Source: Psilocybe cubensis
Lineage: Eukaryota
Assembly (NCBI GenBank): GCA_017499595.2
Contig: CM039003.1
Span: 2,790,001 to 2,854,000 of the forward strand
Direction: 5' to 3'
Length of the DNA: 64,000 nt
The notes under the pieces were generated by a model. It was not told the origin of the DNA, ran no database searches, and saw nothing but the letters and a program-made list of their open reading frames with translations. The position numbers were made by a program, and so were the translations under genes. Each line of letters opens with the position of its first letter. Position 1 is the stretch's first letter. This document shows positions 5,073 to 51,200 of the stretch, in pieces.

Positions 5073-5343
5073 ATTGGGCTGGTTTGACGGTTGTAATGCA
5101 GAAATAGAGACAAGGGGTGGTGAATTATGTCAAGCTACGATCCGGAGGTATGCGAAATTAGCCTCTTTTCAAAATTTAAGGCGACGGACATCAGTCAAAA
5201 ATATATCGTGCCATATAGAAATTACAGGTACTGAAACAGTACCCCTATCTACTACAATATATCACATATACATTATAGTCAGATTCCATGTCCTACTTAG
5301 AGTTAAGTAAAGTTACATCTCAGAGGGGAAAAGACTGCACCTA

Positions 5344-5699
5344 TCATGATCGCGGATTATCCTGAGGGTGCATTAGAATAGGTATTCCCCGACTAATGAG
5401 GGATACCCGTAGACGGGCGATTTCGAGCTGGGTTTCAAACAGAAGATCTTCATTGGATTTATATGCTCGCATAATGTCGTCCATATAACAACGTAGCTCT
5501 GCCTGAACTTCTAGACACCTCTGTTCAGTGAGTTGAAATTGGTCAAGAGCCTTTTTAACGGCCTCTATGCCTTGATTCTAGAGGAAGGTGGATTAAAACA
5601 TGAAAATAGACCTAAAACGAAGAACTCTGCCTCTTCGGGTATGCTAGGGAGGCGGCGACTTTGAGGTTGCGAAGCGTTGTTGCTATTGGAATGGTTCAT
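5344..5699 (-). CDS. Small putative coiled-coil protein (~100 aa, one intron, donor uncertain)
   Basis: MNHSNSNNASQPQSRRLPSIPEE, then a pyrimidine-rich TAG acceptor and an open helical exon NQGIEAVKKALDQFQLTEQRCLEVQAELRCYMDDIMRAYKSNEDLLFETQLEIARLRV...*. Confidence 0.45.
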
Positions 5700-5866
5700 G
5701 ATAAAGATAGGCAACAATTTGGTGTGGTGGTGGTGGCTTAAGTTCAAGACGATCAACACATTACGAACCATTAGCACTGTTGATTGCCGAAATACACTTA
5801 AATAGAATGACATAAAACCCGTATATGTCTACAAGTCCGTGTTCGAGATACAAGTAATGCTGCACC

Positions 5867-8226: not shown

Positions 8227-8330
8227 TGTGGGTCTTAAAGACTGTTAATCGATGTTCATCTCACTTAATTTATCATCTTAACTTGTGATAATTTATTTTT
8301 AGATACTACACAACCTATTACTATGATAAG

Positions 8331-8597
8331 ACGCTATGATGAACGGAAAGAGAAAACATATGGTGAGAAACACGCTATTTCCGGAGCGATTCTTTAGGGT
8401 AGGTTTCCCGTCCTGAAGTCACGAGTTGGTTAAAAAAACGCCCCCTTACATCAGCCGCATCACCGTGATGCGGCTGATGTAAGGGGGCGTTTTTTTAACC
8501 AACTCGTGACTTCAGGACGGGAAACCTACCCTAAAGAATCGCTCCGGAAATAGCGTGTTTCCAACTTGATTGTTTTTCTTTCCGTTCGTCATAGCGT
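8331..8597. repeat. Long palindrome: perfect 97-bp arms (8367-8463 / 8465-8561), 1-nt spacer, imperfect outer arms
   Basis: gaaacacgctatttccgg...gcatcac c gtgatgc...ccggaaatagcgtgtttc. Outer arms acgctatgatgaacggaaag (8331) and ctttccgttcgtcatagcgt (ends 8597). Confidence 0.97.
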
Positions 8598-8737
8598 AGT
8601 ACCCCTCCCCATAGATTTAACATACATTCTAATAAAATAGACATAGACAATACTCTAGACACTCTATAATAGTTTTCGTTCAGTTAAAATTCATCTAGTT
8701 GAAAATTTGAGACACCAGAAAAAAACACACAAAAAAA

Positions 8738-13921: not shown

Positions 13922-16900
13922 ATGAGTCGTTGTTTCAACATGGGAAAGGGCAAGGGCAAGAGAACTCAGGAAATCTGTGTGCGTTGTCCTCGATGCAACA
14001 AGCCATTCGCTAAGCATGCAGATGTCCAAAATCACATCAATCAACCAAAATCGGCATGTCGTTTTCAATATGAGAACGTTATGCATTTTCAGTCCAATCG
14101 TTCAAGCTCTACATCTAGATCAGCAACCCCCGTATCTCGAGACCCTTCTCCCGAAATTGGTAATTTTATGGAAGTGGACTATATCGACAATTTTCTTGGC
14201 GCGTCATCAGAGATGGAAGATGACCCACCCCCCAAGGCATCAAAATACAACTATCCGTACGTGAAGGAGGATTATAACGGGGCTGGAAGAGCATTTGGAA
14301 CAGGCCTTACATTCATGGATCAGCTCAAACAGGATCAATTCGAACCCCAGCGGGCGGAAAATTTGTACTATCCTTTTGCCTCGAAAGATGAATGGGAGCT
14401 CTCCCTGTTCCTACTTCGCTCTGACATGAGCGTAGGAATGCTGAATGATTTTTTGAAACTTGAACTGGTAATTGAGCGTACATTCCCATCATTATTTATT
14501 TCAGCTGAGTCGATCCCGTATAGATAAAAAAACTCAACTTGTCCTACAAGTCGGCAAAAGATCTACGCAACCGGGCAGAGATCCTTCCCTCTGGTCCGCA
14601 GTGGAAGAGTCAAACGATCATACCAGAAATACCAAGCAAAAATCAGCTAACGCTTTTTTACCGCGATGGATTGGAATGTATCAAGGCGCTTCTCATCAGT
14701 CCCTTGCTCCAAGATAGCATGCACTTTAGCCCATTCAAGCTCTTCGACAAGTGCAACGAGATGATGCGGGTATACACTGAGTGGTTTAGCGGTGACATTG
14801 CGCATTTTATGCAGGTTAGTAGCAATGCCTTTGTCCAAGTTTGACGACAGTATAACAAGGTTCCCAAGGACCAGCTCCCAAAAGGAGCAACACTTGTACC
14901 TCCTATTATTTCCACGGATAAAACCAACATTTCCAACATGACCGGAGGCCGTGTCGCCTACCCTGGCCTTATCAGCATTGCCAACATAATGATGAACGTT
15001 AGAAACAAATCGTCAAATCATTTATTCCTTCTTTTTGTTCTTCTTCCCATACCAAAGTTTCTTCATCGCTCCAAAGCTGTGAATGGGATGATGGCAGCAC
15101 GGCTATATCACCAGTGCATGGACATTGCTCTAGAATCGGTCAAACAAACTGCGAGGGTGGGAACCACCATGGCAGATGCATTGGGGAATAATCGTTTCTG
15201 CTTTACACCGCTTGCTGCCCTTATCGTTGATACTCCAGAATCTGCTCTGGCGGCTTGCGTCGCAGGATCCACATCCTCTGTGACGTTGGCACAATACGAG
15301 ACGTTTGGGGATTCCTTTCGCCACCCTTCCCGAACTGCAGATCATACAATCAACACCATCATGGCCATCAACAATGTTAAGCCCCCTAATCATCTCGAAC
15401 CATATCTAAAAGAAAGCAAAAAGCACCGTCTCAATGGGGTTCACCTACCGTTTTGGAGAGATTGGCCCTTGTCTGATCCTTCTGCATTCCTTACGCCTGA
15501 ACCCCTTCATCACTGGCACAAGATGTTCTGGGATCATGATGCAAAATGGTGCATTGCTGCAGTCGGAGGTTCCGAATTGGATTTTCGATTTTCGATTTTA
15601 CAGCACCGCACTGGTTTCCGACACTTCAAGGAAGGGATTTCTTCCTTGAAACAAGTGACCGGTAGGGAACATCGGGACGTTCAGCGATGCATTGTTGCTC
15701 TCATTGCAGACACAGTCAGTACACCCTTTATCTTAGCCATCCGGTCTCTGATGGACTTTCGGTATCTCGCACAATCTCAAACAATCTCCGAGGCAATGTG
15801 TCTCAGAATTGAGCAGGCACTGCAAGATTTCCATGCCAATAAACAAGCCATCCTTGACGCGGGAGCACGTCGAGGTAAAAAAAACAACCCAATTGATAAT
15901 TTCTATATTCCAAAACTCGAGTTTTTGCAAAGTGTAGTACACGCAATTAGACTAAATGGATGTGCAATCCAATGGTCTGCAGACACGACAGAGCATGCAC
16001 ATATCGAGGTGGTCAAAGCCCCTTCCAGTTCCAGCAATAATCAAAGATACGAGCCTCAAGTTTGTCGATACCTTGATCGTCGTGACAAATTGCGCAATTT
16101 CGATTTGTTTACAGCTATACGAGAAATGAGGATCGATTTTCGGGCTATACACTCTGCAACAATTACGGATGAGGAGGAGCAGGAGGAGGGGGATGAGGGG
16201 GAGGAAAACGGCGAGGTTGTGATGGACACAACGTCAGAACTTCTTTCAACAATCATGCCGATGACAACCTTTCAATCAGCAAAGTCCAATCGCATTGTGG
16301 ATTACTTCTACAAAGCTAGTCTCTATGAGCGTGGCGTATTGGAAGGCCCAGTCCCCTACAGAACATTTTCTTGCAGCAAAAACGTTGTTGCCCATTTATC
16401 TAGGGATGCTAGTTCCAAAAGATTGCATATCGACGAGGTTGCGAGCATTTTTAAAATTCCCGACCTACGACCAGCAATTGCCGATTATGTGTCACTCATC
16501 AATAAGGAATCAAATCCGAGACACACCAATTCTCGAGGTTATCACATCAAGGGGATAACTGGCAGGCGTGTTTCTCCTCCCGGTTGTCCGTTGCCGTATT
16601 CAAAACTTGAGGTATGGCATAAGGTCCGTATACAGTCGACTGCGTACCAATACCCTCATGAGATCCTGGAGGCAGTCACACTTAATGCATATCCGCCATC
16701 TAACAAACATCCTTTTGGATACTTCGATTCAGCAATCATAAACGTGGATGAATCTGAGGAGTGGCCTCGCAGCGGGCTTCAAGGTAGTACTTCTTGGTGA
16801 CTTTTTTCCGAACCCCGTTGACCAGCCAATATTGTAGGCCATTCTGTCGTCGACATTCGTATTATTTTTCGCATTGTCGGAGAGACACCCAGTACTGTGT

Positions 16901-20018: not shown

Positions 20019-23000
20019 CATACATGTTATCCGCGTTGTCTGGACTTTATGCCGTGTCTGCGAGCGATGTATGTGCACTAGAAGGAATAGATCTAAGGTA
20101 AAGGTGTTAAATATTACCTGCACATGTTTTGAACAAGACCAGAAATCGAGTGGTGAAGAATGAAGGTGATACGTACATTGATATTACAGTTGCATTCACC
20201 AAGTATTACCGGCATTGCACATGGTGTGCCATTGAAATACATGGTCGTATATCTGCTCTATAGTGTAGTCGAGTATACGAAGCACCACCAAAGTTGATCT
20301 CCGACTCACCAAACGTGTGTTTGTATAATCTCGATTCTAACATTTCTCCATCCCCCATTCGCCCTAGCACTCGTTTCCAAACGTTTGCTTCGGTTCCGGG
20401 TGTCTGATATATTCCCATCAGACCTAAACATTGTTACAACACCTGTCAGTAGAGATGTAACTGAGAACCAACGAAAAAACAAACGAAATTTGTTTGAATG
20501 CGAGGGGGACCTGGACAGCGGATCTACATGGAGAACGGCGCTTGTCGTCGTAATTCAGGTGTGGTGCGCATTTGAAACATTCGAGCGTTACGATACCTTG
20601 AACATTATCGTTCATGGGAGAGGCTGGAGCCGAGTGAAGTCGAAATTGGATCGACGCTTGTATTCGAAGTATAATGCACAATAGACAAATCGTAGAATAC
20701 ACGCAATTGGAATTATCCAGGTAATTGGGTGGACCAGGAACAATTATCGCCACCTAGTATACCATAGCGAAGACGGTTTGTTATTCCAGAATATCAACCC
20801 AACCTCAAATCATCAACATACCTGTGCAAATACGACATGCTCCTCCTCCCCCAATACATCCATTTTCCGCGCTCAAAACGCTTGTTCCTCACGCGGACCT
20901 GAGTTCCTTGCATCACGGAGTTACATATGGACGCATCACAGCATGCTGGAATGAAAAGTAGACTGTTGAATATTGAAGACGCACCACAATTGCAGGTGCC
21001 GTATGGTGCGATTAGGATGATCGCCCCGGGTTGTCTATGTTTCCAGGGCAAATATCGGCACGTAAAGTGTTTAGTTTGATGTGAGAATGCCCAGAGATAC
21101 TCTGAGCGAGCGATGGAGTGGATAACATAGCCCGGCAGAGACAGAGATTGACAGTTTAAAGCTCATGTAGCCATTAATCCGAGTTCCATAGCAGCAAAAC
21201 ATATGATTTTCAAGGCAAATCCACAAAGCAGCAGCAGCAGCACAGAACAGATAGATCCCATAGAGCTAACCATCCATAGCAAAGCAATTCAAATCTCGAA
21301 TCTCGAAATCTAACAAACAGGGAACGGGGAGATGCAAGTCGAATGAAAGACGAACCACACATGTTGCGCAACCTCTCGCTTAGCGCCCGCTTGTCTCGTT
21401 CGCGTCTTTCCCCTTTCAAACATGGGCGTCACGTTTGCGTTTTCAACATACACACGAATGCGGATATACATGCCAGCAGAGAGAGGTACGGAATTGTATA
21501 AAAGGAGGGGTGAGAGCTGACCGGATTTCCTCATCCCCCTCTCCCATTCGCACTCTGCCTCCAGCTCCCTTGTCCGCTCTCTTCTCTCGACGCTTTTGGT
21601 GAGTTTGTACACCATTTCCCGTTGTTCAGGACTGACGCAGTCGTACAGGGAAGGCTATGAGGTACCAAGGTAAGTACCTTGTCACTGGTGTACACACTAT
21701 CACTCACCTAGGCCGATCAACGCGTCCAGAGTGTTCTCCCAGCGATAGCCCATCCAACTTGAAGGCACGGTAAGCGGTTTGCATCCTGATTGTTCAGAAT
21801 TCCAGTGCTGACCTCTTTACTCCTGCGTCGTGATTGGATCCCCGTAGCCCCTCGAGAGTGGTCTTGCCGGGTGAGGTACTCGCAGGCTTGCGCAGTATAC
21901 CAGCAGCTCCTAAAACGCGCCGTCGCTGCGATTTGACCGCCCAACAATGCCCCCGCGTTCCTTCATGCTGCCCCGCCTTGAAACACAAGCATGTCAAAGG
22001 CCATACAAAGTGTTAGTGTGCTCGACAACCCCATTTTGATGCTGTACTCACCAATGTCATGCACAACTAGAAAACATGGTACTGACGCACCTTGTCAGCA
22101 CATCCACCATTGACGACGGTCCTTGTGACCCCCACAAGAACCGCCAACGCCACCTTGCTCCCCGAGCACAATCTTGATGCGGCATTGTCGTGTTGGGCAG
22201 CATCCAATGTACGTGCACCAGCAGATTACATAGCAGTAGCGTGCAACTGATGCTATGCAAGCGTGACAGCGCTATCCCATGTTGGAATGGACCTTTCCGT
22301 TCTCAACACTGTTCTGGATGACCGGCATGTTGGATGATGCAGACCGAGAGGCGGGAGATAGGTCACTGTTCTTGATGACCGGCCAATGACACGATGGAGG
22401 GTGCAGACGGAGATGCGGGAGAGACAGGTATGTGAGTGAATTGTGATGACCATGCGCATGTTGCTTACCCTGTGCAGAACATTCCCCTCGAGTCATGGTT
22501 CTGGACAGTAACAACGACCTTGCGAGAGTGCCGTCAGAACCCGTGCTCGAGTGGCGGCCCTTGAATCAATCCGACAGCTGTGTTGAGGCCAATTTGTGGT
22601 GTATCTAGCAGTGACAACAGACCTCCAGAGTGTCGTCAGAACCCGCGCTCGAGTGTTGACCATCTTGTCAGCCCGAAAGGTGTGTGGTGGTGAGTGTGTT
22701 GAGTCCAGGTTTTGGTGAGTGACCTCAACGACACGGTAAGCAGACCAAGCCCATATATGCGATCAATGTGACTAACGTACCTGTCCTCTTGTCAACAGTT
22801 GTGCTGATAGAATGTGGCAAGATATATGTGAGTTTGACGGGATTGTGGCGGACGCAGAATGGCAAAGCGAAGACGGATGGAATGAGGACAGAGAGCGGGA
22901 GTATGAGAAAGGCACGAGTGAGTGGAGGGATACATGCCAGCGAGGATGACTGTTGTGCACGGCGCGATGGGAGGGACAAGCAAGACAAAGGGATGGGAGT

Positions 23001-31420: not shown

Positions 31421-31756
31421 ACGCGGACCTGAGTTCCTTGCATCACGGAGTTACATATGGACGCATCACAGCATGCTGGAATGAAAAGTAGACTGTTGAA
31501 TATTGAAGACGCACCACAATTGCAGGTGCCGTATGGTGCAATTAGGGTGATCGCCCCGGGTTGTCTATGTTTCCAGGGCAAATATCGGCACGTAAAGTGT
31601 TTAGTTTGATGTGAGAATGCCCAGAGATACTCTGAGCGAGCGATGGAGTGGATAACATAGCCCGGCAGAGACAGAGATTGACAGTTTAAAGCTCATGTAG
31701 CCATTAATCCGAGTTCCATAGCAGCAAAACATATGATTTTCAAGGCAAATCCACAA

Positions 31757-32206
31757 TGTCAGGGCAACACTATAATCAGTGTGACAAGGCCACCAACAAA
31801 GATTAAGCAAGAAAGAGAAAGAGAGAGCAGAGGGAGAGTAAGAGAGCAAAGAGAGAATAAGAGAGTGAGAGAGATTCAATGGTTCTAAGAGATCACACCA
31901 ATGATAGTGGATATCCTAAGAGATTGAAGCTGAAGCTACAGCTACCTACAAGTCCAGTATTTATACTCTACAGCTATTCTAGAATATTCCCTACATTACA
32001 TCATAAAGGAAGGTTAAAGAATAAAAGTGACATCATATAGAAAAAGGATGAGTAAGACTAGGAATCATATAGAATTTACTAGAAAGAAGTGGAGCAAGAA
32101 GGCTGTGATGAAAGAAATAAACTATCTAATCAGATAATTGATAAGATAATGAAAGGATAAGATAATTCTGTGAAGATAAAGAGGGGAAACTGGAGAAACC
32201 CTGACA
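31757..32206 (-). repeat. 3' LTR
   Basis: Appears identical to 37700-38149. Confidence 0.97.
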
Positions 32207-32220
32207 TCACCCCCTCTCTA
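32207..32220 (-). other. Polypurine tract, overlapping the pol stop codon
   Basis: Minus strand TAGAGAGGGGGTGA immediately precedes the 3' LTR. Confidence 0.85.
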
Positions 32221-35200
32221 AGGCACATTTTCCACAATGTGCACATGGATGGGTTAGTTTAGAGGGTTTAAGAAGAGGAGGAGGTTCAGTAAAGTTAATA
32301 ATAGGAGTGAAAGAAAGTCTATCAAAGGTCACAGCAGAAATCCTTCTAGGTGCTGAAGGATGTTTGGCATGGAAGTCCTTGATAGCCTTAGAAGCATTTT
32401 TCAAATGCTCTGCAGGCTCCCAAGTGCATTCTTCATTAGGATAGTTCTTCCACTTGACCAAATATTGAAGTTTGTTTCTAAAAAGTCTGCTGTCCTTGAT
32501 AAATTCAACTTCCCACTCAGGATTTTCTCCTTGAATGACAGGAGGTGGTCTAGAAGGAGGCTTTCTTCCTACAATATCTGGGTAATAAGGTAGAAGTTTA
32601 ACCACATTGAACACTGGATGGATTTTCATGGTAGATGGCAGCTTAAGCTCATAGGCATTAGGGCTAATAACTTTGGTAATTTTGTAAGGCCCATATCTTT
32701 TATCATCCAATTTCTTGGAGGGCCTATCAGTTTTGAGGTCCTTGCCATCTAACCATACCAAATCCCCAACTTTGTACTGAGTTGGAGTACCTCTGTGTCT
32801 ATTATAGAATTTAGCCATATCATCAGCAGCTTTTCTAAGTGCAGACTCTGCTTCTTTTCTGGCTTCTTCCATATTTTTCACAAAGGTATCCACAGTGTCC
32901 ATTTTACTATCTCTAAGGGGTTCAGTGCCCATTCTGGGATGTCTGCCATTATTGAGCATGAATGGTGTCTGCCTGGTTGAAGCCTGAACTCTATTGTTAT
33001 AAGAGAATTCAGCTAGAGCTAACCATTCAACCCAATCATCTTGTCTATGGTTTATAAAGAGTCTAAGATACTGCTCAATTTCTTGGTTAACTCTTTCAGT
33101 CTGACCATCAGTTTGGGGATGGTAGGCTGTAGATGAGGCTGTCTGGATACCAAGTATTGAGTTGAGTTCTTTCATAAACCTTGAGACAAACTGTGGACCT
33201 CTATCACACAGAATTTTAATGGGTAAGCCATGGTGTTTCCAGATATAATCTCTGTATAGTCTGGCTGTCCCTTCAGAAGTGACTTCATCTGTAGTAGGGA
33301 TAATGTGGATCATTTTACTAAGTCTATCCACAACCACCATAATGGCATTATACCCTTGACATTCTGGTAACCCCATAATAAAGTCCACAGAGATGCATTG
33401 CCAGACATCAGAGGGAATCTCAGTAGGAATTAAAAGGCCAAGAGGTTTGGCTGGAAAGGTTTTGGTTCTGTTGCATCTATCACAACCTCTGGTATAGGCT
33501 GCAATAAAATGTGACATTCCTGGCCACCAATAATTCCTAGAGACTAGCTCAATTGTCTTCCATTTCCCTGGATGTCCAGCAATGAAGGCATCATGGTGCA
33601 GTTCCACAATCTTTCTTCTAAGATCTTTGTCCTTGGGAACATACACCTTCCCCCTGTAGAGAATAAGGCCTTGTTCTTCTGACCATTCCTGTCCTTCAAT
33701 CTTCTTGGTAGAAGATTTCTTGAGCTCCTGAACTGCCTTGACCACCTTTTCATCCATCTCCTTAGCTTCTCTAATCTTCTTAAGAAGATCATTTTCTGCA
33801 CCAGTAATGGTAGCATGGCCCTGCTTGAGAGCCTGGATTTTAAAGTAGGAAGGTTTGAGGAGAACTACATTTTGGTTATCATTCTCTCCCTTTTTATGAT
33901 CTGGTCTCCTAGACAAAGCATCTGGCTTAAGAGATCTTTTACCAGGCCTATGATGAAGAGTAAAATCAAATCTGGACAGGAAGAGTGACCATCTGGCTTG
34001 CCTTCTGCTGAGCTTTTGGGCAACCATAAAGTACTCTAAGTTTTTGTGGTCTGTCCAAATCTCAAAGGAATGTTGGGTTCCTTCAAGATAATGTCTCCAT
34101 TCATCTAGTGCTCTGATAATAGCCAGCATCTCTTTGTCATGGATCTCATAATTCCTTTCTACTTCAGATAGACTCTTAGACATAAAGGCTACAGGATGCC
34201 ATTTCCCATCTGATCCTTCCTGAGATAAAACAGCCCCAGTAGCATAATCTGAACTGTCTGCTTCAACTTTATATGGCTTGTTATCATCAGGGAAAATCAA
34301 GACAGGTGAAGAAGTGACTTTCTTCTTTAACTGGTCAAAGGCTTCCTGCTGTCTAAGACTCCATCTCCAGACTGTTCCTTTCTTTGTCAATTCATGAAGG
34401 GGCTTAGCAATGTCTGCAAAATCCTCTATGAACCTTCTATAAAAATTAACAAATCCCAAGAATGATTGGACATCCTTGACATTTTCAGGTTCAGGCCATT
34501 TAGAAACTCCCTCTACCTTGACAGGATCCATCTCAATCCTGCCTTGTGAAATGATTAGTCCAAGATATTCAATCTTTTCCTTTTCAAATTCACATTTCTC
34601 TGCTTTAAGGTAGAGTTTGTTCTGTTCTAAGATTTGCAGAACTTGCTTGACTACCTCTCTATGATGATCAAGAGTCTCAGTGAAAATTAAAATGTCATCC
34701 ATGTAGACAATGACAACATTTCCATCAATGAGCTCAATAAAGATATCATTCATCATAGTTTGGAAGGTAGCAGGACTATTGGTTAAACCAAAGAACATGA
34801 CCAATGGTTCAAACAGCCCTCTATTGGTTCTAAAGGCTGCTTTCCATTCATCTCCCTTTTTGATTCTGACATTGTTAAATCCCCACCTAACATCAAGTTT
34901 GGTGAAGTATTTGGCTTTGCTGAGTTTGGTGATGATGTCAGAAATCAATGGAAGGGGGTAGGAGTTCTTGATGGTCATTTCATTCAGTTTCCTATAGTCC
35001 TGGACAAGCCTAAGAGATCCATCCTTCTTCTTGACAAAGAATACAGGGGAGGCCATAGGTGACTTGGAGGGTCTAATCCTGCCAGACTTCAGATTTTCCT
35101 CTAAAAAGGCATCAAGTTCCTTTTGTTCATTGGGAGAAAGAGGATAAATCTTGGATCTGTAAGGTTCAGAACCAGGTTTCAGCTCAATAGCATGATCCCA

Positions 35201-36094
35201 AGGCTTTCTGTCTGGTAGCCTATCAAAAGATTCCTTTGAAAAAACACCTTTAAACTGATGATAGTGCTTAGGAACAGTTTCTTCAAAGGTTTTCTTAGGG
35301 GAATCAGCTTGCTGATGAGACTCTTCTGCTAATCTTTGAGACATAGTAGAAGTAGCATTAATAGACTGCTTCTGAGGATGAAGGTATGAGATAAAAATTC
35401 TATCCTCAGGCTCAATCTCAGAATCAGAAGAATCTTCAATAGAATCATCTTCTTCTTCATCAAATTGAGGGAGTTTCCTCCTTTTGACTGCAGCTATTCT
35501 CTGCCTCTTTCTTCTGGCTCTTTTGGCTTCCATTTGGCAGTCAGAGGGACATCTAATAAACTGGACATCCCCTGTCTTCCAATCAACATCTGGATTATGG
35601 TGCCAAAGCCAAGTATGTCCAATGATAGCAGATTTGTCTCCCAAGTCACAAACAGCAAAGGTGGCCCTTTCTGTATGGTTTTTGTGTACCATAATTAAGT
35701 CTACTTCCTCATGGATAGAGCCACTCTTGTTGAGAGTACCATCAACATTATAGACTGGAATGGCTCTAGGAAGTTTCCTTGTGTTGAGATTATGATACTT
35801 CACAAAACCAGAATGCAGAAAGAGGCCAGTAGCTCCAGAATCAAGCAAAGCATCAACAGATAACCTTTTCTCTGTGTCCATTGTCTTTAAGATGACAGAC
35901 AAATGGGTAGAGGTTTTAGGATTATGGTTGAGGATGTAGATCTTTTCAGGGAAGGTAGAAAGAGAGGAAGAAGAAGACATGATTTCTGCACCAGAATCTG
36001 AAGACTGAGGATCAAGTCTGTCAATTTCATTTTCTAGTACATTAAATCTATTCCATTGGGACATGTCTTTCACCAATGGTGCTTCTAAAAATTT
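32207..36094 (-). CDS. pol: Pol polyprotein: aspartic protease, RT, RNase H, integrase, chromodomain (expressed by -1 frameshift)
   Basis: LLDSGAT (PR), YMDDILI (RT), EADSSDYA / WTDHKNL (RNase H), H..GHPG...CDRC and SVDFI / CDRGPQF / GQTERVNQ (IN), WEVEFI...YLVKWKNY...TWEP (chromodomain). Confidence 0.97.
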   Translation of the reverse strand, partial: KFLEAPLVKDMSQWNRFNVLENEIDRLDPQSSDSGAEIMSSSSSLSTFPEKIYILNHNPKTSTHLSVILKTMDTEKRLSVDALLDSGATGLFLHSGFVKYHNLNTRKLPRAIPVYNVDGTLNKSGSIHEEVDLIMVHKNHTERATFAVCDLGDKSAIIGHTWLWHHNPDVDWKTGDVQFIRCPSDCQMEAKRARRKRQRIAAVKRRKLPQFDEEEDDSIEDSSDSEIEPEDRIFISYLHPQKQSINATSTMSQRLAEESHQQADSPKKTFEETVPKHYHQFKGVFSKESFDRLPDRKPWDHAIELKPGSEPYRSKIYPLSPNEQKELDAFLEENLKSGRIRPSKSPMASPVFFVKKKDGSLRLVQDYRKLNEMTIKNSYPLPLISDIITKLSKAKYFTKLDVRWGFNNVRIKKGDEWKAAFRTNRGLFEPLVMFFGLTNSPATFQTMMNDIFIELIDGNVVIVYMDDILIFTETLDHHREVVKQVLQILEQNKLYLKAEKCEFEKEKIEYLGLIISQGRIEMDPVKVEGVSKWPEPENVKDVQSFLGFVNFYRRFIEDFADIAKPLHELTKKGTVWRWSLRQQEAFDQLKKKVTSSPVLIFPDDNKPYKVEADSSDYATGAVLSQEGSDGKWHPVAFMSKSLSEVERNYEIHDKEMLAIIRALDEWRHYLEGTQHSFEIWTDHKNLEYFMVAQKLSRRQARWSLFLSRFDFTLHHRPGKRSLKPDALSRRPDHKKGENDNQNVVLLKPSYFKIQALKQGHATITGAENDLLKKIREAKEMDEKVVKAVQELKKSSTKKIEGQEWSEEQGLILYRGKVYVPKDKDLRRKIVELHHDAFIAGHPGKWKTIELVSRNYWWPGMSHFIAAYTRGCDRCNRTKTFPAKPLGLLIPTEIPSDVWQCISVDFIMGLPECQGYNAIMVVVDRLSKMIHIIPTTDEVTSEGTARLYRDYIWKHHGLPIKILCDRGPQFVSRFMKELNSILGIQTASSTAYHPQTDGQTERVNQEIEQYLRLFINHRQDDWVEWLALAEFSYNNRVQASTRQTPFMLNNGRHPRMGTEPLRDSKMDTVDTFVKNMEEARKEAESALRKAADDMAKFYNRHRGTPTQYKVGDLVWLDGKDLKTDRPSKKLDDKRYGPYKITKVISPNAYELKLPSTMKIHPVFNVVKLLPYYPDIVGRKPPSRPPPVIQGENPEWEVEFIKDSRLFRNKLQYLVKWKNYPNEECTWEPAEHLKNASKAIKDFHAKHPSAPRRISAVTFDRLSFTPIINFTEPPPLLKPSKLTHPCAHCGKCALERG

Positions 36095-37194
36095 TTCTTT
36101 TCCTCATCTTTCTGCTCCTTGCCTTCCAAGATTAATTTCCCAAAGTAGTCAGCCAGTTCTTCATGGGTCATAGCATTGATGTTAACTGATGACCTGCAGT
36201 TTACAGCCTTATGACCAGGTTTTCTGCACTTGAAGCAAACAATTGGCCTAACTGACTTCCATCCAGAGTCAACCTCCATGGGAACTACATCTGGTTGCTT
36301 TGCCTGAGCACCAAAGGTCCTTGAGCTGCTGTTGGAAAAGACTGGAGGATTTGGAGTAGGCTTAGGAACAGCCTTGGGAGTTGGGGCTTTAAGGAAGGGA
36401 GAAGAAGAGGAGGAGGAAAGAGACTTGGTAAAGGCCTCACTCTGTCTCCACTGCCTATCTAGCCTAGTACTCCATTTAATCCATCCATCCAAGGTTTTGG
36501 GCATGTCAGGAACATAGTAGACTGCATTCCTAAGATTTTCATTAAGCCCAGCCTTGAATTGGTCTACCAAAGCAGCATCATTATACCCAGTATCTGAGAT
36601 CAGAGCCCTGAAGCTAGCAACATACTCATCAGCAGTCTGTCTGCCTTGCTTGAGCATGTGCATTTTATGCTTAGCTGTGTTGGAGGGGTCTGGATCTGCA
36701 AACACTTCCCTAAATTCATAAACAAAATCAGCCCAAAGACCTTCTTGGGACTGAGCATTGTCTATTACTTTAGTCTTCTCATATGCCCACTTCCCAGCAG
36801 TACCTCCTTTCATATGAGATAGAGCACAAATAACTTTCTGAAAGTCATCTGTAATCCCTTTCCCATAGAAATATAATTTAAGCTGACTGAGGAAGTTTTC
36901 TGCCTTCTCCATAGAACCATCAAATGGATCTGGAGGTGAGACTTTAATGGCAGAGTGTGAACAGGAAGGGGCAACATGAGGAGTAGGGAAAGAGTGAATA
37001 TCTAGAGCAGCAGGTGGTGGTGGTGGTGGTGGTGATGGTGACTGACTGACTGGTTGCTGAGGGTGTGGTGGAGTGGATAATGACTGCTGCTGCTGTCTAA
37101 GAAAATTCAACTCTTGGGTAAGGAGCTGGACCTGATGCATGAGCTCTTCCACAGAAGGAGTGGTGGGAGGCAATTGGGAGGGGTCCATGTCCAT
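36085..37194 (-). CDS. gag: Gag protein with CCHC zinc knuckle
   Basis: PDPFDG motif, LKQG, VVPMEVD, CFKCRKPGHKAVNC. Confidence 0.95.
   Translation of the reverse strand: MDMDPSQLPPTTPSVEELMHQVQLLTQELNFLRQQQQSLSTPPHPQQPVSQSPSPPPPPPPAALDIHSFPTPHVAPSCSHSAIKVSPPDPFDGSMEKAENFLSQLKLYFYGKGITDDFQKVICALSHMKGGTAGKWAYEKTKVIDNAQSQEGLWADFVYEFREVFADPDPSNTAKHKMHMLKQGRQTADEYVASFRALISDTGYNDAALVDQFKAGLNENLRNAVYYVPDMPKTLDGWIKWSTRLDRQWRQSEAFTKSLSSSSSSPFLKAPTPKAVPKPTPNPPVFSNSSSRTFGAQAKQPDVVPMEVDSGWKSVRPIVCFKCRKPGHKAVNCRSSVNINAMTHEELADYFGKLILEGKEQKDEEKKNF
36088..36094 (-). promoter_or_regulatory. -1 ribosomal frameshift slippery heptamer A-AAT-TTT
   Basis: X-XXY-YYZ heptamer directly before the gag TAG; the -1 frame is the pol frame. 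Confidence 0.8.
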
Positions 37195-37686
37195 GGGTAG
37201 GGGTAGGTAGGCTCTCTGATGTGTGTGTGGGAGAAGCTATCTACTGAAAGTGCCCTTGAAACTATACTAAGTATTCTAAAAAAAATATCTATCTACTGGA
37301 TACCCAGTTGTCACACCACTCAGGGCTCTAAACCTAGGATCACAGGGTTACTGGATATTTCCTAGACCACCAAAAACAGAACACTAGTAGGACTGTGTCT
37401 GCCCCAACAGTTGGTATCCCTATCTACTAAGTTCACACACAGCACACAACAGAGAGTAGGAAAGATGATGAGCCAAAGGTCTTGAGGAAAGGTCTTGAGG
37501 AAAGGTTTTGAGGAGGATGTTGAAGATTGGTGGAGATGTAGAGATTGGTAAGAAGATTGGTGAAGAGGTTGATGAAGAGGTTGGTGGGTTGGAAGTGGAG
37601 GAAGAAGGTTGAGGTGATGGTGTTGAAGAGGTTGAAGAGGTGAAGAGTTTGGTGTTGAAAGAGAGATGGTGGAGTTGTCTTGAGAG

Positions 37687-37697
37687 AGCTTCAATCT
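37687..37697 (-). other. Self-priming primer-binding site (AGATTGAAGCT)
   Basis: Lies 2 nt inside the 5' LTR boundary, lacks TGG, and is complementary to AGCTTCAATCT at 37874-37864 in the LTR. Confidence 0.75.
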
Positions 37698-37699
37698 TC

Positions 37700-38149
37700 T
37701 GTCAGGGCAACACTATAATCAGTGTGACAAGGCCACCAACAAAGATTAAGCAAGAAAGAGAAAGAGAGAGCAGAGGGAGAGTAAGAGAGCAAAGAGAGAA
37801 TAAGAGAGTGAGAGAGATTCAATGGTTCTAAGAGATCACACCAATGATAGTGGATATCCTAAGAGATTGAAGCTGAAGCTACAGCTACCTACAAGTCCAG
37901 TATTTATACTCTACAGCTATTCTAGAATATTCCCTACATTACATCATAAAGGAAGGTTAAAGAATAAAAGTGACATCATATAGAAAAAGGATGAGTAAGA
38001 CTAGGAATCATATAGAATTTACTAGAAAGAAGTGGAGCAAGAAGGCTGTGATGAAAGAAATAAACTATCTAATCAGATAATTGATAAGATAATGAAAGGA
38101 TAAGATAATTCTGTGAAGATAAAGAGGGGAAACTGGAGAAACCCTGACA
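37700..38149 (-). repeat. 5' LTR (TATAAATA at 37908-37901)
   Basis: 450-bp direct repeat of 31757-32206 with 8-bp terminal inverted repeats. Confidence 0.97.
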
Positions 38150-40378
38150 CACAAAGCAGCAGCAGCAGCACAGAACAGATAGATCCCATAGAGCTAACCA
38201 TCCATAGCAAAGCAATTCAAATCTCGAATCTCGAAATCTAACAAACAGGGAACGGGGAGATGCAAGTCGAATGAAAGACGAACCACACATGTTGCGCAAC
38301 CTCTCGCTTAGCGCCCGCTTGTCTCGTTCGCGTCTTTCCCCTTTCAAACATGGGCGTCACGTTTGCGTTTTCAACATACACACGAATGCGGATATACATG
38401 CCAGCAGAGAGAGGTACGGAATTGTATAAAAGGAGGGGTGAGAGCTGACCGGATTTCCTCATCCCCCTCTCCCATTCGCACTCTGCCTCCAGCTCCCTTG
38501 TCCGCTCTCTTCTCTCGACGCTTTTGGTGAGTTTGTACACCATTTCCCATTGTTCAGGACTGACGCAGTCGTACAGGGAAGGCTATGAGGTACCAAGGTA
38601 AGTACCTTGTCACTGGTGTACACACTATCACTCACCTAGGCCGATCAACGCGTCCAGAGCGTTCTCCCAGCAATAGCCCATCCGACTTGAAGGCACGGTA
38701 AGCGGATTGCATCCTGTTTGTTCAGAATTCCAGTGCTGACCTCTTTACTCCTGCGTCGTGATTGGATCCCCGTAGCCCCTCGAGAGTGGTCTTGCCGGGT
38801 GAGGTACTCGCAGGCTTGCGCAGTATACCAGCAGCTCCTAAAACGCGCCGTCGCTGCGATTTGACCGCCCAACAATGCCCCCGCGTTCCTTCATGCTGCC
38901 CCGCCTTGAAACACAAGCATGTCAAAGGCCATACAAAGTGTTAGTGTGCTCGACAACCCCATTTTGATGCTGTACTCACCAATGTCATCCATGCCCATAA
39001 AGTCACGCTAAACACATGTTGCCGACGCGTCCTGTAACCATCTCTGCGCATCCGCCAGTGTCCTGTCCCTGCCGTGCTTCCAGCCTCAAAATACGGCGCA
39101 CTGTTCCATGTTGAAGTGCTTACAGAGTGTGAGTAGCGCTGACAACCTTCTCTTGATGCCGTACTCACCGATGTGACCAGTGCACCCAGCATAATGCTGT
39201 AAACACCTGGCCGACGATCGATGGAGCGTGTGCAAGATCACACTCGACTGACGCTGAAAAAAGTGATTGGCCGTGACCTGGTTAGTGATTTTTAGCACAT
39301 TTTGATAAGATACTCACCGACCGCGGTTGCCTATATGCACAGAAAGTCGCTTTGTAGGATCCATGGCTGCACTTTTGCGTGCCGCCTTGAAGAGAACATG
39401 CTCATTTCACGTTGAAAGGGCTGAAGAAGGTTAGTGATAGGTTACCCTGATTGTGATGCGATACTTACCAGAACATGGAAGATTGCACGATGGCGGAGCT
39501 GTTGTGGGTGGTCAAGGTGGGATTGGGATGGTGAGCAAGGACAGCGGCTGGCGTGGGGTGGGATGAGGGTCAAGGACAGCTGCTGGAAGACGCGTCTCGT
39601 TGATGGCATTGACAGCGGTGTGGGGTTCTGATACTCAGATTGTAGGATCAACGTTGTGACGAATGCAAGGTCTACGGTGAGCAAAAAAAGCACAACTAGA
39701 AAACATGGTACTGACGCACCTTGTCAGCACATCCACCTTGTGACCCCCACAAGAACCGCCAACCCCTCTCAATGTCGAGCCCACACTTGATGTGGCGGAC
39801 GCAGAATGGCAAAGCAAAGACGGATGGAATGAGGACAGAGGGCGGGAGTATGAGAAAGGCACGAGTGAGTGGAGGGATACGTGCCAGCGAGGATGACTGT
39901 TGTGCACGCGATGGGAGGGACAAGGAGTATCAGTTTCTATAGCTTATTCATAGTTCACTAATACACGGCTTTGTCGGTCGCCTTGCAATCTTTGAGTTTG
40001 ATCTTTCCGCTCAGGGGCATTATCCGCCGCCTAAACTGACTTTACACGCTGTTTTCACACAAGTTGCAAGAACCGCTGCCTGACTAGGGCTCACCACCTT
40101 TGATAGTGCCAGAAGGGGTGTCACGGGGTCCTTCTCCCAGGAAAATTTGATCCACGATTCCATGTGCTCCCACTGCCAACAACAATGGAGATCAAGTTGC
40201 AGCATTGGACCATCTTATATTTGTACCCTCTCCGCTCCATGAAAGTTTGTGGGAAGGGGAACATTCGGACGCGCTTTGACTCATCCCTTTACGCGTCAAA
40301 AGCAGACGGAAATTCAACAACTTTTCACTAATCTTCAAGCAATCGACAACCAGAATTCTCGTATATCCGACTGCAATC

Positions 40379-48200: not shown

Positions 48201-51200
48201 TCCAGGTAATTGGGTGGACCAGGAACAATTATCGCCACCTAGTATACCATAGCGAAGACGGTTTGTTATTCCAGAATATCAACCCAACCTCAAATCATCA
48301 ACATACCTGTGCAAATACGACATGCTCCTCCTCCCCCAATACATCCATTTTCCGCGCTCAAAACGCTTGTTCCTCACGCGGACCTGAGTTCCTTGCATCA
48401 CGGAGTTACATATGGACGCATCACAGCATGCTGGAATGAAAAGTAGACTGTTGAATATCGAAGACGCACCACAATTGCAGGTGCCGTATGGTGCAATTAG
48501 GGTGATCGCCCCGGGTTGTCTATGTTTCCAGGGCAAATATCGGCACGTAAGGTGTTTAGTTTGATGTGAGAATGCCCAGAGATACTCTGAGCGAGCGATG
48601 GAGTGGATAACATAGCCCGGCAGAGACAGAGATTGACAGTTTAAAGCTCATGTAGCCATTAATCCGAGTTCCATAGCAGCAAAACATATGATTTTCAAGG
48701 CAAATCCACAAAGCAGCAGCAGCAGCACAGAACAGATAGATCCCATAGAGCTAACCATCCATAGCAAAGCAATTCAAATCTCGAATCTCGAAATCTAACA
48801 AACAGGGAACGGGGAGATGCAAGTCGAATGAAAGACGAACCACACATGTTGCGCAACCTCTCGCTTAGCGCCCGCTTGTCTCGTTCGCGTCTTTCCCCTT
48901 TCAAACATGGGCGTCACGTTTGCGTTTTCAACATACACACGAATGCGGATATATATGCCAGCAGAGAGAGGTACGGAATTGTATAAAAGGAGGGGTGAGA
49001 GCTGACCGGATTTCCTCATCCCCCTCTCCCATTCGCACTCTGCCTCCAGCTCCCTTGTCCGCTCTCTTCTCTCGACGCTTTTGGTGAGTTTGTACACCAT
49101 TTCCCGTTGTTCAGGACTGACGCAGTCGTACAGGGAAGGCTATGAGGTACCAAGGTAAGTACCTTGTCACTGGTGTACACACTATCACTCACCTAGGCCG
49201 ATCAACGCGTCCAGAGCGTTCTTCCAGCGATAGCCCATCCGACTTGAAGGCACGGTAAGCGGATTGCATCCTGTTTGTTCAGAATTCCAGTGCTGACCTC
49301 TTTACTCCTGCGTCGTGATTGGATCCCCGTAGCCCCTCGAGAGTGGTCTTGCCGGGTGAGGTACTCGCAGGCTTGCGCAGTATACCAGCAGCTCCTAAAA
49401 CGCGCCGTCGCTGCGATTTGACCGCCCAACAATGCCCCCGCGTTCCTTCATGCTGCCCCGCCTTGAAACACAAGCATGTCAAAGGCCATACAAAGTGTTA
49501 GTGTGCTCGACAACCCCATTTTGATGCTGTACTCACCAATGTCATCCATGCCCATAAAGTCACGCTAAACACATGTTGCCGACGCGTCCTGTAACCATCT
49601 CTGCGCATCCGCCAGTGTCCTGTCCCTGCCGTGCTTCCAGCCTCAAAATACGGCGCACTGTTCCATGTTGAAGTGCTTACAGAGTGTGAGTAGCGCTGAC
49701 AACCTTCTCTTGATGCCGTACTCACCGATGTGACCAGTGCACCCAGCATAATGCTGTAAACACCTGGCCGACGATCGATGGAGCGTGTGCAAGATCACAC
49801 TCGACTGACGCTGAAAAAAGTGATTGGCCGTGACCTGGTTAGTGATTTTTAGCACATTTTTATAAGATACTCACCGACCGCGGTTGCCTATATGCACAGA
49901 AAGTCGCTTTGTAGGATCCATGACTGCACTTTTGCGTGCCGCCTTGAAGAGAACGTGCTCATTTCACGTTGAAAGGGCTGAAGAAGGTTAGTGATAGGTT
50001 ACCCTGATTGTGATGCGATACTTACCAGAACATGGAAGATTGCACGATGGCGGAGCTGTTGTGGGTGGTCAAGGTGGGATTGGGATGGTGAGCAAGGACA
50101 GCGGCTGGCGTGGGGTGGGATGAGGGTCAAGGACAGCTGCTGGAAGACGCGTCTCGTTGATGGCATTGACGGCGGTGTGGGGTTCTGATACTCAGATTGT
50201 AGGATCAACGTTGTGACGAATGCAAGGTCTACGGTGAGCAAAAAAAGCACAACTAGAAAACATGGTACTGACGCACCTTGTCAGCACATCCACCTTGTGA
50301 CCCCCACAAGAACCGCCAACCCCTCTCAATGTCAAGCCCACACTTGATGTGGCGGACGCAGAATGGCAAAGCGAAGACGGATGGAATGAGGACAGAGGGC
50401 GGGAGTATGAGAAAGGCACAAGTGAGTGGAGGGATACGTGCCAGCGAGGATGACTGTTGTGCACGCGATGGGAGGGACAAGGAGTATCAGTTTCTATAGC
50501 TTATTCATAGTTCACTAATACACGGCTTTGTCGGTCGCCTTGCAATCTTTGAGTTTGATCTTTCCGCTCAAGGGCATTATCCGCCGCCTAAACTGACTTT
50601 ACACGCTGTTTTCACACAAGTTGCAAGAACCGCTGCCTGACTAGGGCTCACCACCTTTGATAGTGCCAGAAGGGGTGTCACGGGGTCCTTCTCCCAGGAA
50701 AATTTGATCCACGATTCCATGTGCTCCCACTGCCAACAACAATGGAGATCAAGTTGCAGCATTGGACCATCTTATATTTGTACCCTCTCCGCTCCATGAA
50801 AGTTTGTGGGAAGGGGAACATTCGGACGCGCTTTGACTCATCCCTTTACGCGTCAAAAGCAGACGGAAATTCAACAACTTTTCACTAATCTTCAAGCAAT
50901 CGACAACCAGAATTCTCGTATATCCGACTGCAATCATGACCTCGATCTTTGTCAACCAGGCCGGAGACGGTGTTGGGGGTACACAACTTCAATTTTACGA
51001 GGCTGGCGACGCGTGAGTGTAGCAGATACTCTGTACGTATTGATAGAGTCTTTAACATTCTCTAGCTTTTGGAAGGACCCACGATACATACCCTTGCTTC
51101 TATCCGGAATTTTCTCCTTCTCCCAGTTGACGCACGCTGTGTGCAGCCGCTTCAAGTACGGAAGGAGACCAAACGAGGCAGCCGCGTCAACGGAGGAGCG

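What the first reader, a model, noticed from the sequence alone, without database searches (positions are those of the whole stretch)
31757..38149. Intact, recently inserted retrotransposon with no CpG dinucleotide in 6.4 kb
Seen: reading every line of 31757-38149 I found no CG, against roughly 200 or more expected from base composition (rough estimate), while the flanks are CpG-rich. Yet gag and pol are fully open and the LTRs look identical. Established: basidiomycetes methylate transposons mainly at CpG, and 5mC deaminates to T. Inference: this lineage has purged every CpG while staying functional, making it invisible to CpG methylation and its mutagenesis. That is a second escape strategy beside the CpG-normal, cargo-bearing Plavaka element.
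Basis: partly seen in the sequence, partly recalled or inferred. Interest (0 to 1): 0.85.

Follow-up and report, generated by a model that had tools for sequence, protein, structure and literature searches.

The report
Intact mushroom retrotransposon without any CpG
A complete, recently inserted, multi-copy jumping gene in a mushroom genome contains not one CG dinucleotide although about 267 are expected, so the usual fungal way of marking and mutating such elements has nothing to act on.

Summary
Window 31757-38149 (minus strand) has 0 CG against 267 expected, while the 10-kb flanks have CpG observed/expected 0.96. CG is the only missing 2- to 4-letter word.

The element is an intact Ty3/Gypsy chromovirus of the Tf1/sushi type:
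- identical 450-bp LTRs, and a 5-bp target duplication CACAA with two empty paralogous sites in the window;
- open gag and pol joined by a -1 slippery site;
- an 11-nt self-priming site.

All 92 Arg codons are AGR. None of 482 codons before a G-starting codon ends in C.

Independent raw reads put it at 5-10 times the depth of its multi-copy flanks, with many different insertion junctions.

Among 94 relatives (30-60% protein identity) CpG loss goes with broken ORFs and TpG/CpA excess. Only this element is both intact and CpG-free.

Best reading, 0.5: a retrotransposon lineage filtered over a long time until it lost every target of CpG methylation and mutation.

Not tested: methylation, expression, and the CpG content of the closest relatives (68-85% protein identity), whose DNA was out of reach. 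The host is probably Psilocybe cubensis. This is a new variant of a known kind.

The parts
31752..31756 (.). Left copy of the 5-bp target-site duplication CACAA
   Evidence: The same pentamer occurs once at the empty paralogous sites 21222-21226 and 48707-48711.
31757..32206 (-). 3' LTR (in the element's own orientation), 450 bp, with TGTCAGGG...CCCTGACA termini and 0 CpG
   Evidence: It is 450 of 450 identical to 37700-38149. The LTR sequence is printed.
32210..32219 (-). Polypurine tract AGAGAGGGGG, three bases before the 3' LTR and overlapping the end of pol
   Evidence: read directly from the sequence.
32207..36103 (-). pol frame of 1298 codons (P0001): protease DSGA, RT (YMDD), RNase H, integrase (H2C2, core, SH3_Tf2-1) and a C-terminal chromodomain
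   Evidence: Translation. Pfam hits RVT_1 1e-37, RT_RNaseH 5e-39, Integrase_H2C2 7e-20, rve 2e-10, SH3_Tf2-1 6e-18 and Chromo 2.5e-15. Motifs.
36088..36094 (-). Candidate -1 frameshift heptamer A_AAT_TTT, just before the gag stop; pol lies in the -1 frame
   Evidence: frames computed. That this site causes slippage is inferred from its form, not tested.
36085..37194 (-). gag CDS from its first ATG to TAG (P0002 frame 36085-37236), with Ty3 capsid-like domain and CCHC zinc knuckle
   Evidence: Translation. Pfam hits Ty3_capsid 3e-10, Retrotrans_gag 4e-9 and zf-CCHC 3.5e-4. ATG position.
37687..37697 (-). Primer-binding site AGATTGAAGCT, 2 nt after the 5' LTR and complementary to the predicted 5' end of the transcript (self-priming)
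   Evidence: An 11 of 11 complement was found, with coordinates. It pairs in both the MFE and the centroid fold.
37864..37874 (-). Self-primer AGCTTCAATCT inside the 5' LTR, at the predicted start of R, 34 nt downstream of TATAAA
37903..37908 (-). TATAAA box in the LTR (U3)
   Evidence: Its role as a promoter is inferred.
37700..38149 (-). 5' LTR, 450 bp
38150..38154 (.). Right copy of the target-site duplication CACAA
21222..21226 (.). Empty paralogous target site in tandem unit A
48707..48711 (.). Empty paralogous target site in tandem unit C

Best explanation
The element is an autonomous, recently transposed Ty3/Gypsy chromovirus of the Tf1/sushi (self-priming) type, in a genome that is most likely Psilocybe cubensis.

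Shown: its lineage has lost every CpG, in coding sequence, LTR and leader alike, while all its parts stay intact.

Inferred mechanism: in Agaricomycetes cytosine methylation sits almost only at CpG in transposons, and methylated CpG mutates faster. Copies that carry CpG are therefore silenced and eroded. The copies that go on transposing are those whose CpG sites have been replaced by harmless alternatives. Arg is written AGR, no codon has the form NCG, and no codon ends in C before a G. This is always possible without changing a protein.

Repeated over many cycles, this filter leaves a master lineage with no target left. Such a copy cannot be CpG-methylated or CpG-mutated within its own 6.4 kb. 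That would fit its high copy number and youth.
For: CpG absence:
- 0 of 267 expected CpG; the flanks have o/e 0.96.
- CG is the only missing word.
- The absence covers 955 nt of non-coding LTR plus leader (34 expected) as well as the ORFs, so it is a DNA-level property and not a codon-usage habit.
- 92 of 92 Arg codons are AGR. 0 of 482 codons before a G-codon end in C, against 316 of 1199 elsewhere.

Not plain deamination:
- The closest relatives with DNA in hand (54-60% protein identity: L001, L002, L004, L007, L040, L092) use CGN for 66-85% of Arg. They use it at 33-45 conserved Arg positions where this element has AGR. C-to-T or G-to-A changes cannot produce that difference.
- TpG+CpA o/e is 1.18, the same as in host tandem unit A.

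Off the decay trend:
- In 94 related loci CpG o/e and TpG+CpA o/e correlate at r = -0.82.
- The 8 loci with a pol ORF of at least 1100 aa have CpG o/e 0.65-1.30.
- None of the 29 loci with o/e below 0.5 has an ORF over 748 aa.
- This element is the only one that is both intact and CpG-free.

Intact and mobile:
- Identical LTRs, TSD and empty sites.
- All domains present.
- Self-primer and PBS.

Abundant and young in independent raw reads (X19):
- Depth is about 1300-1700 on the element against 147-310 on the flanks.
- 45576 of 75061 laid reads are at least 99% alike.
- Hundreds of loose ends at the LTR edges have low consensus agreement (0.35-0.39), meaning many insertion sites.

Literature, passages read:
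- CpG is the dominant methylation context in basidiomycete TEs (PMC6191308).
- CpG transitions are over-represented in Agaricomycotina repeats, and Microbotryum TE lineages are poor in the TCG hypermutation target at non-synonymous positions (PMC3318451).
Against: - No methylation or expression data were available. No whole genome is held and no listed holder is on record as RNA.
- The same window shows no strong CpG erosion of other repeated DNA. The 10.5-kb tandem units have CpG o/e 0.95, and their differences show only a 1.7- to 2.0-fold excess of CpG transitions per site (polarity is uncertain, as 347 of 370 singletons fall in unit A). The Plavaka transposase ORF has o/e 0.82. The pressure needed for a total purge is therefore not visible here.
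- A neutral balance between CpG loss and gain would need CpG transitions to be at least about 150 times faster than ordinary ones to give zero among 909 TpG+CpA. This is my arithmetic on the counts. Ordinary 5mC decay alone is not enough, so selection or a stronger mutator has to be assumed.
- DNA of the nearest relatives (68-85% protein identity) could not be fetched. Whether the state is old and maintained is unknown.
- Once it is purged, the state could persist for a while by inertia without any present advantage.
Confidence: 0.5

Rival explanations
1. One-off or continuing CpG-specific hypermutation, with no adaptive value. A RIP-like, repeat-directed process with a CpG target converted every CpG of an ancestor. 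A copy that happened to stay functional then expanded, and the CpG-free state is a scar.
For: - CpG-biased or TCG-biased hypermutation of repeats is reported in basidiomycetes (passages read in PMC3318451, and PMC4014442).
- Near-total CpG loss by mutation does occur in retroelement DNA. L094 has 2 CpG in 8962 nt against 367 expected.
- Zero is hard to reach by ordinary 5mC decay.
Against: - Where mutation clearly did it, TpG and CpA are in excess and the ORFs are gone. L094 has TpG and CpA o/e of 1.35 each and no ORF of 150 aa or more. Across the 94 loci the trend is r = -0.82.
- Here TpG+CpA equals the host background and both ORFs are open.
- 33-45 conserved Arg positions are AGR where relatives have CGN. 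Transitions would give Cys, Trp, His, Gln or stop, not AGR.
- PMC3318451 found no clear RIP-like pattern in three Agaricomycotina.
- The tandem repeat around the element keeps CpG o/e 0.95.
Confidence: 0.17
2. The purge happened elsewhere and the state persists by inertia. The lineage became CpG-free in another host or at an earlier time. It arrived vertically or by horizontal transfer and burst recently, and the state persists only because new CpGs arise slowly.
For: - The element has 41.0% G+C against 47.5-47.8% in the flanks.
- Near-identical copies occur in runs under at least 5 coded organism labels: a share of sampled words of 0.77-0.92 for labels A-E, across 8 studies among all holders.
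- The family is young.
- By my arithmetic, about 4-5 new CpGs are expected per 1% divergence, so a young burst would still be near zero.
Against: - This only moves the question, because a complete purge with retained function still has to be explained.
- The protein relatives named by a source are from Agaricales (Lyophyllum shimeji, 55-57%), so there is no sign of a distant donor.
- The coded labels may be strains or close species.
- In a diverged relative (83-87% nucleotide identity, run X13), 0 of the 28 differences shown create a CG, and 11 of them are changes to C or G. This is weak, since about 2.4 would be expected, but it hints that the state is kept across divergence.
Confidence: 0.15
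3. The selection acts on the RNA or the cDNA, not on chromosomal DNA. A host factor that recognises CpG in retroelement transcripts, or that edits cDNA, selects for CpG-free genomic RNA. This would be comparable to CpG suppression in vertebrate retroviruses (recalled, not read here).
For: - The whole element, LTRs included, is represented in the genomic RNA, so absence everywhere fits.
- A DNA transposon (Plavaka ORF, o/e 0.82) and a tandem repeat in the same window keep their CpG. The effect could therefore be specific to retroelements.
Against: - No such fungal factor turned up in any paper I read.
- No strand asymmetry or deaminase-type context bias was seen: TC, CT and CC are over-represented, not depleted.
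- 8 of 94 related chromoviruses are intact with CpG o/e 0.65-1.30, so CpG-bearing RNA is tolerated in related fungi.
Confidence: 0.1
4. Assembly or base-calling artefact, in which methylated CpGs were mis-called.
For: None was found. It was considered because methylated sites can cause systematic errors in some long-read assemblies (recalled).
Against: - Illumina raw reads of another study (X19) cover the element at depth of about 1500. In the rows shown, no difference inside the element exceeds 3% of X19 reads, while differences carried by all X19 reads were listed for the flanks (552 rows were not shown).
- Logan contigs of 11 runs hold at least half of its sampled words.
- Conversion errors would have turned CGA into TGA stops, yet both ORFs are open.
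Confidence: 0.02

Closest known systems
Tf1/Tf2 (Schizosaccharomyces pombe), Tj1 (S. japonicus) and the Tf1/sushi group of self-priming Ty3/Gypsy elements
   Same: - Domain order PR-RT-RH-IN, with a Tf2-1-type SH3 and a chromodomain at the integrase C-terminus.
- A PBS complementary to the 5' end of the element's own transcript, not to a tRNA (11 of 11). This is the mechanism described for Tf1 and Tj1 in passages read from PMC4600332.
   Different: - gag and pol are separate frames with a candidate -1 slippery site. [quoted passage not shown] That Tf1 has a single ORF is recalled, not read.
- The host is an Agaricales mushroom.
- CpG is completely absent.
Ordinary CpG depletion of methylated transposons (5mC deamination decay), as seen in its relatives
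   Same: The dinucleotide affected is the same. The relatives span CpG o/e from 0.008 to 1.29.
   Different: In the relatives CpG loss comes with TpG/CpA gain (r = -0.82) and broken ORFs. Here the loss is total, TpG/CpA is at host background and every part is intact.
Depletion of the TpCpG hypermutation target in transposon lineages of Microbotryum (Pucciniomycotina), as discussed in Horns et al. 2012 (PMC3318451, passages read)
   Same: A transposon lineage becomes poor in the very motif that the host's mutating defence attacks, especially where a hit would change the protein.
   Different: There it is a paucity of a trinucleotide in another subphylum. Here it is the complete absence of the dinucleotide, in non-coding parts too, in an Agaricales genome where that paper saw no RIP-like process.
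CpG suppression in vertebrate retroviruses and RNA viruses, and restriction-site avoidance in phages (both recalled, no paper read here)
   Same: A mobile genome sheds the short word that a host defence recognises.
   Different: The defence systems and hosts are different. No RNA-level CpG sensor is known to me in fungi.

Membership tests
Ty3/Gypsy LTR retrotransposon (Metaviridae) | Two direct LTRs with TG...CA ends, flanked by a 4-6 bp target duplication | tested here: met
   450-bp LTRs, 100% identical, with ends TGTCAGGG...CCCTGACA. TSD CACAA, with empty sites at 21222-21226 and 48707-48711.
Ty3/Gypsy LTR retrotransposon (Metaviridae) | gag with capsid and CCHC knuckle; pol in the order PR-RT-RNase H-integrase | tested here: met
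   Pfam hits in that order along P0001 and P0002. The protease is seen only as a DSGA motif at residue 88, with no Pfam protease hit at E of 0.001 or better.
Chromovirus | [quoted passage not shown] | tested here: met
   PF00385 Chromo at residues 1197-1246 of 1298, E 2.5e-15.
Tf1/sushi self-priming group | PBS complementary to the first bases of the element's own mRNA; no tRNA-type TGG PBS | tested here: met
   An 11 of 11 complement between window 37687-37697 and 37864-37874, the latter 34 nt after TATAAA. It is paired in the MFE and centroid folds. The transcription start is inferred and was not mapped.
Tf1/sushi self-priming group | Phylogenetic placement of RT/IN within the group | not tested
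   There is only the PF24626 SH3_Tf2-1 hit. No tree was built.
Methylation-decayed (CpG-eroded) transposon copy | CpG deficit accompanied by TpG/CpA excess | tested here: not met
   CpG o/e is 0, but TpG+CpA o/e is 1.18, equal to host unit A at 1.18. Decayed relatives reach 1.35-1.5.
Methylation-decayed (CpG-eroded) transposon copy | Loss of reading frames and diverged LTRs | tested here: not met
   The ORFs of 383 and 1298 codons are open and the LTRs are identical.
Ascomycete-type RIP product | CpA-to-TpA bias with TpA excess and AT-rich sequence | tested here: not met
   TpA o/e is 0.69 and CpA is 1.22.
Transposon unmethylated for lack of CpG ('methylation-stealth') | The host methylates CpG in other transposons, while this family carries no 5mC and is transcribed | not testable with these tools
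   No genome is held, there are no methylation data and no RNA holder is listed.

The most novel reading that the evidence does not exclude
The family is held at exactly zero CpG by selection. Because the host's transposon silencing and its mutagenic side effect both need CpG, CpG-free copies stay transcribed and un-eroded wherever they land. On this reading the lineage, unlike its CpG-bearing relatives, is intact, young and present in tens of copies. It would be a eukaryotic counterpart of restriction-site avoidance in phages, and the trait should be shared by its 68-85% identical relatives in other mushrooms.
Probability: 0.35. Interest if true: 0.8.

Novelty: new variant of a known kind. 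Interest (0 to 1): 0.68.

Why it matters
CpG methylation is the main known mark on basidiomycete transposons. It has usually been read as a one-way road to decay, and the 94 relatives examined here follow that road. An intact, abundant element with no CpG at all shows that a retrotransposon can leave the road entirely at no protein cost.

It also gives a clean natural test case. Does silencing in these fungi need CpG inside the element? Can heterochromatin or small RNAs silence a CpG-free copy? How fast do new CpGs disappear? Each question can be answered with existing long-read methylation calling and RNA-seq on a cultivable mushroom.

Tried and rejected
- Whole genome: none is held for this window, so CpG content, age and copy number of other TE families could not be compared.
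- Rfam on the window: no hit, so the 10.5-kb tandem unit is not rDNA.
- Closest relatives: proteins of 68-85% identity exist, but their DNA was out of reach. The viral and prokaryote collections gave 11 and 3 distant loci.
- Expression: no RNA holder is listed. Run X14 is only guessed to be RNA; it holds 6 short contigs, 5 of them at least 99% alike. It was not used as evidence.
- Variants among copies in X19: 552 rows of differences were not shown, so CpG-creating variants could not be counted.
- Host identification from an SPT5-like ORF: no long homologue at E of 1e-20 or better. Pfam on 19 further ORFs of the window gave only a weak, below-cut-off ABC-transporter hit.
- Earlier findings of this scan: nothing on this genome or on similar sequence. 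One search returned only unrelated phage and bacterial cases.
- Literature: 10 full-text searches were run. None of the listed titles or abstracts, nor the passages I read, described an intact CpG-free transposon in a fungus. Papers outside the held library, and all supplements, were not seen.
- The second CpG-free stretch, 1920-2168: a 21-nt tandem repeat unrelated to the element.
- Rejected as explanations: rDNA context, ascomycete-type RIP and a sequencing artefact (see the rivals and the membership test).
Full report
**Observation**

A direct count gives 0 CG in window 31757-38149 (6393 nt, 41.0% G+C) against 267.0 expected from base composition. The 10-kb flanks have 542 against 564 and 551 against 571, an o/e of 0.96 on both sides. 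The CG-free gap (31710-38225, 6515 nt) is 26 times longer than the next longest in the window, which is 248 nt. That second gap is a trivial 21-nt tandem repeat.

The absence holds in every part of the element:
- pol: 0 against 158.
- gag: 0 against 60.
- LTR: 0 against 13.
- leader: 0 against 21.

CG is the only absent word; no other 3- or 4-mer is missing. The flanks are CpG-normal and not CpG-rich.

**What the element is**

It lies on the minus strand.

*LTRs and target site.* The LTRs (31757-32206 and 37700-38149) are 450 of 450 identical and end in TGTCAGGG...CCCTGACA. It is flanked by a 5-bp duplication, CACAA.

The surrounding DNA is a ~10.5-kb unit present in 2.5 tandem copies (20019-52766, 97-99% identical). 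Because of that, the window itself holds two empty copies of the target site (21222-21226 and 48707-48711), each with a single CACAA. This shows a clean insertion that is younger than the duplication of the unit.

*Coding capacity.* gag (first ATG at 37194, stop codon 36085-36087) has a Ty3 capsid-like domain and a CCHC knuckle. pol (1298 codons, 32207-36103) has, in order:
- a DSGA protease motif;
- RT (YMDD);
- RNase H;
- integrase zinc, core and Tf2-1-type SH3 domains;
- a C-terminal chromodomain.

pol is in the -1 frame relative to gag. The heptamer A_AAT_TTT sits just before the gag stop. That it causes frameshifting is inferred from its form.

*Priming signals.* A polypurine tract abuts the 3' LTR. 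There is no tRNA-type PBS. Instead, the 11 nt starting 2 nt after the 5' LTR are perfectly complementary to LTR positions 276-286, which lie 34 nt downstream of a TATAAA box. Both the minimum-energy fold and the centroid fold of the predicted 5' RNA pair these two segments and extend the helix. This is the self-priming arrangement described for Tf1 and Tj1 (passages read in PMC4600332).

The element is therefore a complete chromovirus of the Tf1/sushi type.

**Host**

The neighbouring Plavaka transposase ORF (14845-16800, Pfam) is 99-100% identical to two UniRef proteins of Psilocybe cubensis. The window therefore most likely comes from that species or a very close relative. This rests on a transposon protein, so it is probable and not certain.

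**Copy number and independent confirmation**

Sampled 31-mers of the element occur in 16 listed runs from 8 studies. Eleven of them hold at least half of the words.

Raw Illumina reads of one of the listed runs (X19, added for its species label) were laid at 80% or more likeness:
- Summed depth is about 1300-1700 on the element against 147-310 on the flanks, which are themselves multi-copy.
- 45576 of 75061 laid reads are at least 99% alike.
- Hundreds of reads run off each LTR edge into unlike sequence with low consensus agreement (0.35-0.39), so there are many insertion sites.
- 51 reads join 31751 to 38150, which is the empty site.
- In the rows shown, no difference inside the element exceeds 3% of X19 reads, whereas differences carried by all X19 reads were listed for the flanks. 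552 rows were not shown.

A rough copy number can be derived. About 1632 million letters were read. This is an estimate only.

An artefact is excluded for practical purposes. Mis-called CpGs would also have turned CGA codons into TGA stops.

**How the sequence avoids CpG**

All 92 Arg codons are AGA or AGG. No Ser, Pro, Thr or Ala codon ends in G. None of the 482 codons that precede a G-starting codon ends in C, while 316 of 1199 other codons do. Every amino acid and every codon pair can be written without CG, so the purge costs nothing at the protein level.

**Comparison with relatives**

DNA could be obtained for 94 relatives of 30-60% protein identity:
- 11 IMG/VR loci;
- 3 loci in prokaryote MAG records.

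Over the matched pol stretch their CpG o/e runs from 0.008 to 1.29, and none has zero CG there. The eight with the highest best-segment identity to P0001 (57-60%: L040, L007, L067, L093, L001, L092, L048, L053) have o/e 0.74-1.29. Six of the nearest with long matches (L001, L002, L004, L007, L040, L092; 54-60%) write 66-85% of Arg as CGN. That includes 33-45 conserved Arg positions where this element has AGR.

Across the 94 loci, CpG o/e (measured on the longest ORF) and TpG+CpA o/e correlate at r = -0.82. The 8 loci with a pol ORF of at least 1100 aa have CpG o/e 0.65-1.30. None of the 29 loci below 0.5 has an ORF longer than 748 aa. One caveat is that contig ends and assembly of multi-copy families can shorten ORFs.

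The extreme case is L094, with 2 CG in 8962 nt, TpG and CpA each at 1.35, and no ORF of 150 aa or more. That is the classical picture: methylated CpG decays to TpG/CpA and the element dies.

The element studied here is off this trend in all three respects:
- It has zero CpG.
- Its TpG+CpA o/e is 1.18, exactly the host background (unit A 1.18).
- Every part is intact.

**Mechanism**

*Shown.* The CpG absence is specific, complete, at the DNA level and compatible with full function. It cannot be the product of C-to-T and G-to-A transitions alone. CGN-to-AGR changes at conserved arginines need transversions, and the deamination products are not in excess.

*Inferred.* A long-running filter acted on the lineage. 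In basidiomycetes 5mC is predominantly at CpG in transposons (PMC6191308, passages), and CpG transitions are over-represented in Agaricomycotina repeats (PMC3318451, passages). Copies that carry CpG are therefore silenced and eroded. The copies that keep transposing are those whose CpGs have been replaced by harmless alternatives, until none is left.

The same paper notes that Microbotryum transposon lineages are poor in the TCG hypermutation target at non-synonymous positions. That is the closest precedent I read.

A simple balance calculation on the counts shows the limit of plain decay. With 909 TpG+CpA and zero CpG, CpG transitions would have to be at least about 150 times faster than ordinary ones. 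Ordinary 5mC decay is therefore insufficient by itself. Either selection against CpG-bearing copies or a much stronger CpG-directed mutator is needed.

**Evidence against, and open points**

- The window gives no sign of such a strong pressure on other repeated DNA. The tandem units keep CpG o/e 0.95. Their differences show only a 1.7- to 2.0-fold excess of CpG transitions per site (polarity uncertain). The Plavaka transposase ORF has o/e 0.82.
- The effect may therefore be specific to retroelements (a rival: selection at the RNA or cDNA stage). Or it may have been acquired earlier or elsewhere and persist by inertia. By my arithmetic about 4-5 new CpGs arise per 1% divergence, so a young burst would still be near zero.
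- There is a weak hint against pure inertia. In a relative of 83-87% nucleotide identity in run X13, none of the 28 differences shown creates a CG. Eleven of them are changes to C or G, where about 2.4 CG-creating changes would be expected by chance.
- Methylation, chromatin state and expression were not testable. No genome is held and no RNA holder is listed.

**Novelty**

CpG depletion of methylated transposons, and depletion of a hypermutation target in transposon lineages, are both known. An intact, multi-copy retrotransposon with no CpG at all in a CpG-normal fungal genome was not described in any listing, abstract or passage returned by the 10 full-text searches. Papers outside the held library and all supplements were not seen. 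I rate it a new variant of a known kind.

That the element is intact, recent and purged without loss of function is shown. That it is invisible to methylation follows logically for CpG methylation within the element, but it was not measured. The comparison with a Plavaka 'escape strategy' has no support.

**Verdict**

This is a real and striking feature with a plausible but unproven adaptive reading. Interest is 0.68, and confidence in the filter explanation is 0.5.

Noticed in passing
window 20019-52766: A ~10.5-kb unit is present in 2.5 tandem copies, 97-99% identical and CpG-normal. Its ORFs have no Pfam domain. In the raw reads of X19 its depth (147-310) suggests several more copies than one. 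The retrotransposon landed in the middle unit.
   Followed up: partly
L094 1-8962: A record titled as the chromosome of an actinobacterial MAG (Lapillicoccus) holds 9 kb of 40% G+C DNA with only 2 CG (367 expected). TpG and CpA o/e are both 1.35, and it contains a decayed Ty3/Gypsy remnant with no ORF of 150 aa or more. It looks like eukaryotic DNA inside a bacterial record.
   Followed up: partly
L092 and L093: A fungal-type chromovirus (58-59% identical to this pol, CpG o/e 1.2-1.3), with an intact 1304-aa pol ORF on L092, lies on contigs of a MAG titled Pyrinomonadaceae. This is probably fungal contamination of the bin.
   Followed up: no
window 14845-16800 (+) and 6758-7621 (-): There is a Plavaka transposase ORF with DUF6830 (99-100% identical to Psilocybe cubensis UniRef entries, CpG o/e 0.82). 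About 7 kb away lies an SPT5-like NGN/KOW ORF, for which no long homologue was found at E of 1e-20 or better.
   Followed up: partly
window 8331-8597: A 133-nt inverted repeat, 93% complementary, with a 1-nt spacer.
   Followed up: no
run X13 laid on window 33000-36200: A relative of the element at 83-87% nucleotide identity appears in contigs with word depth of about 3000-9000 in a run under another organism label. It is a very abundant sister family somewhere else.
   Followed up: partly
window 37278, 37495, 37640 (leader of the element): In the X19 reads, 41-43% carry a 1-nt deletion at 37278 and a 13-nt deletion at 37495, and 17% carry a T insertion at 37640. The family therefore has at least two leader subtypes in that isolate.
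   Followed up: no
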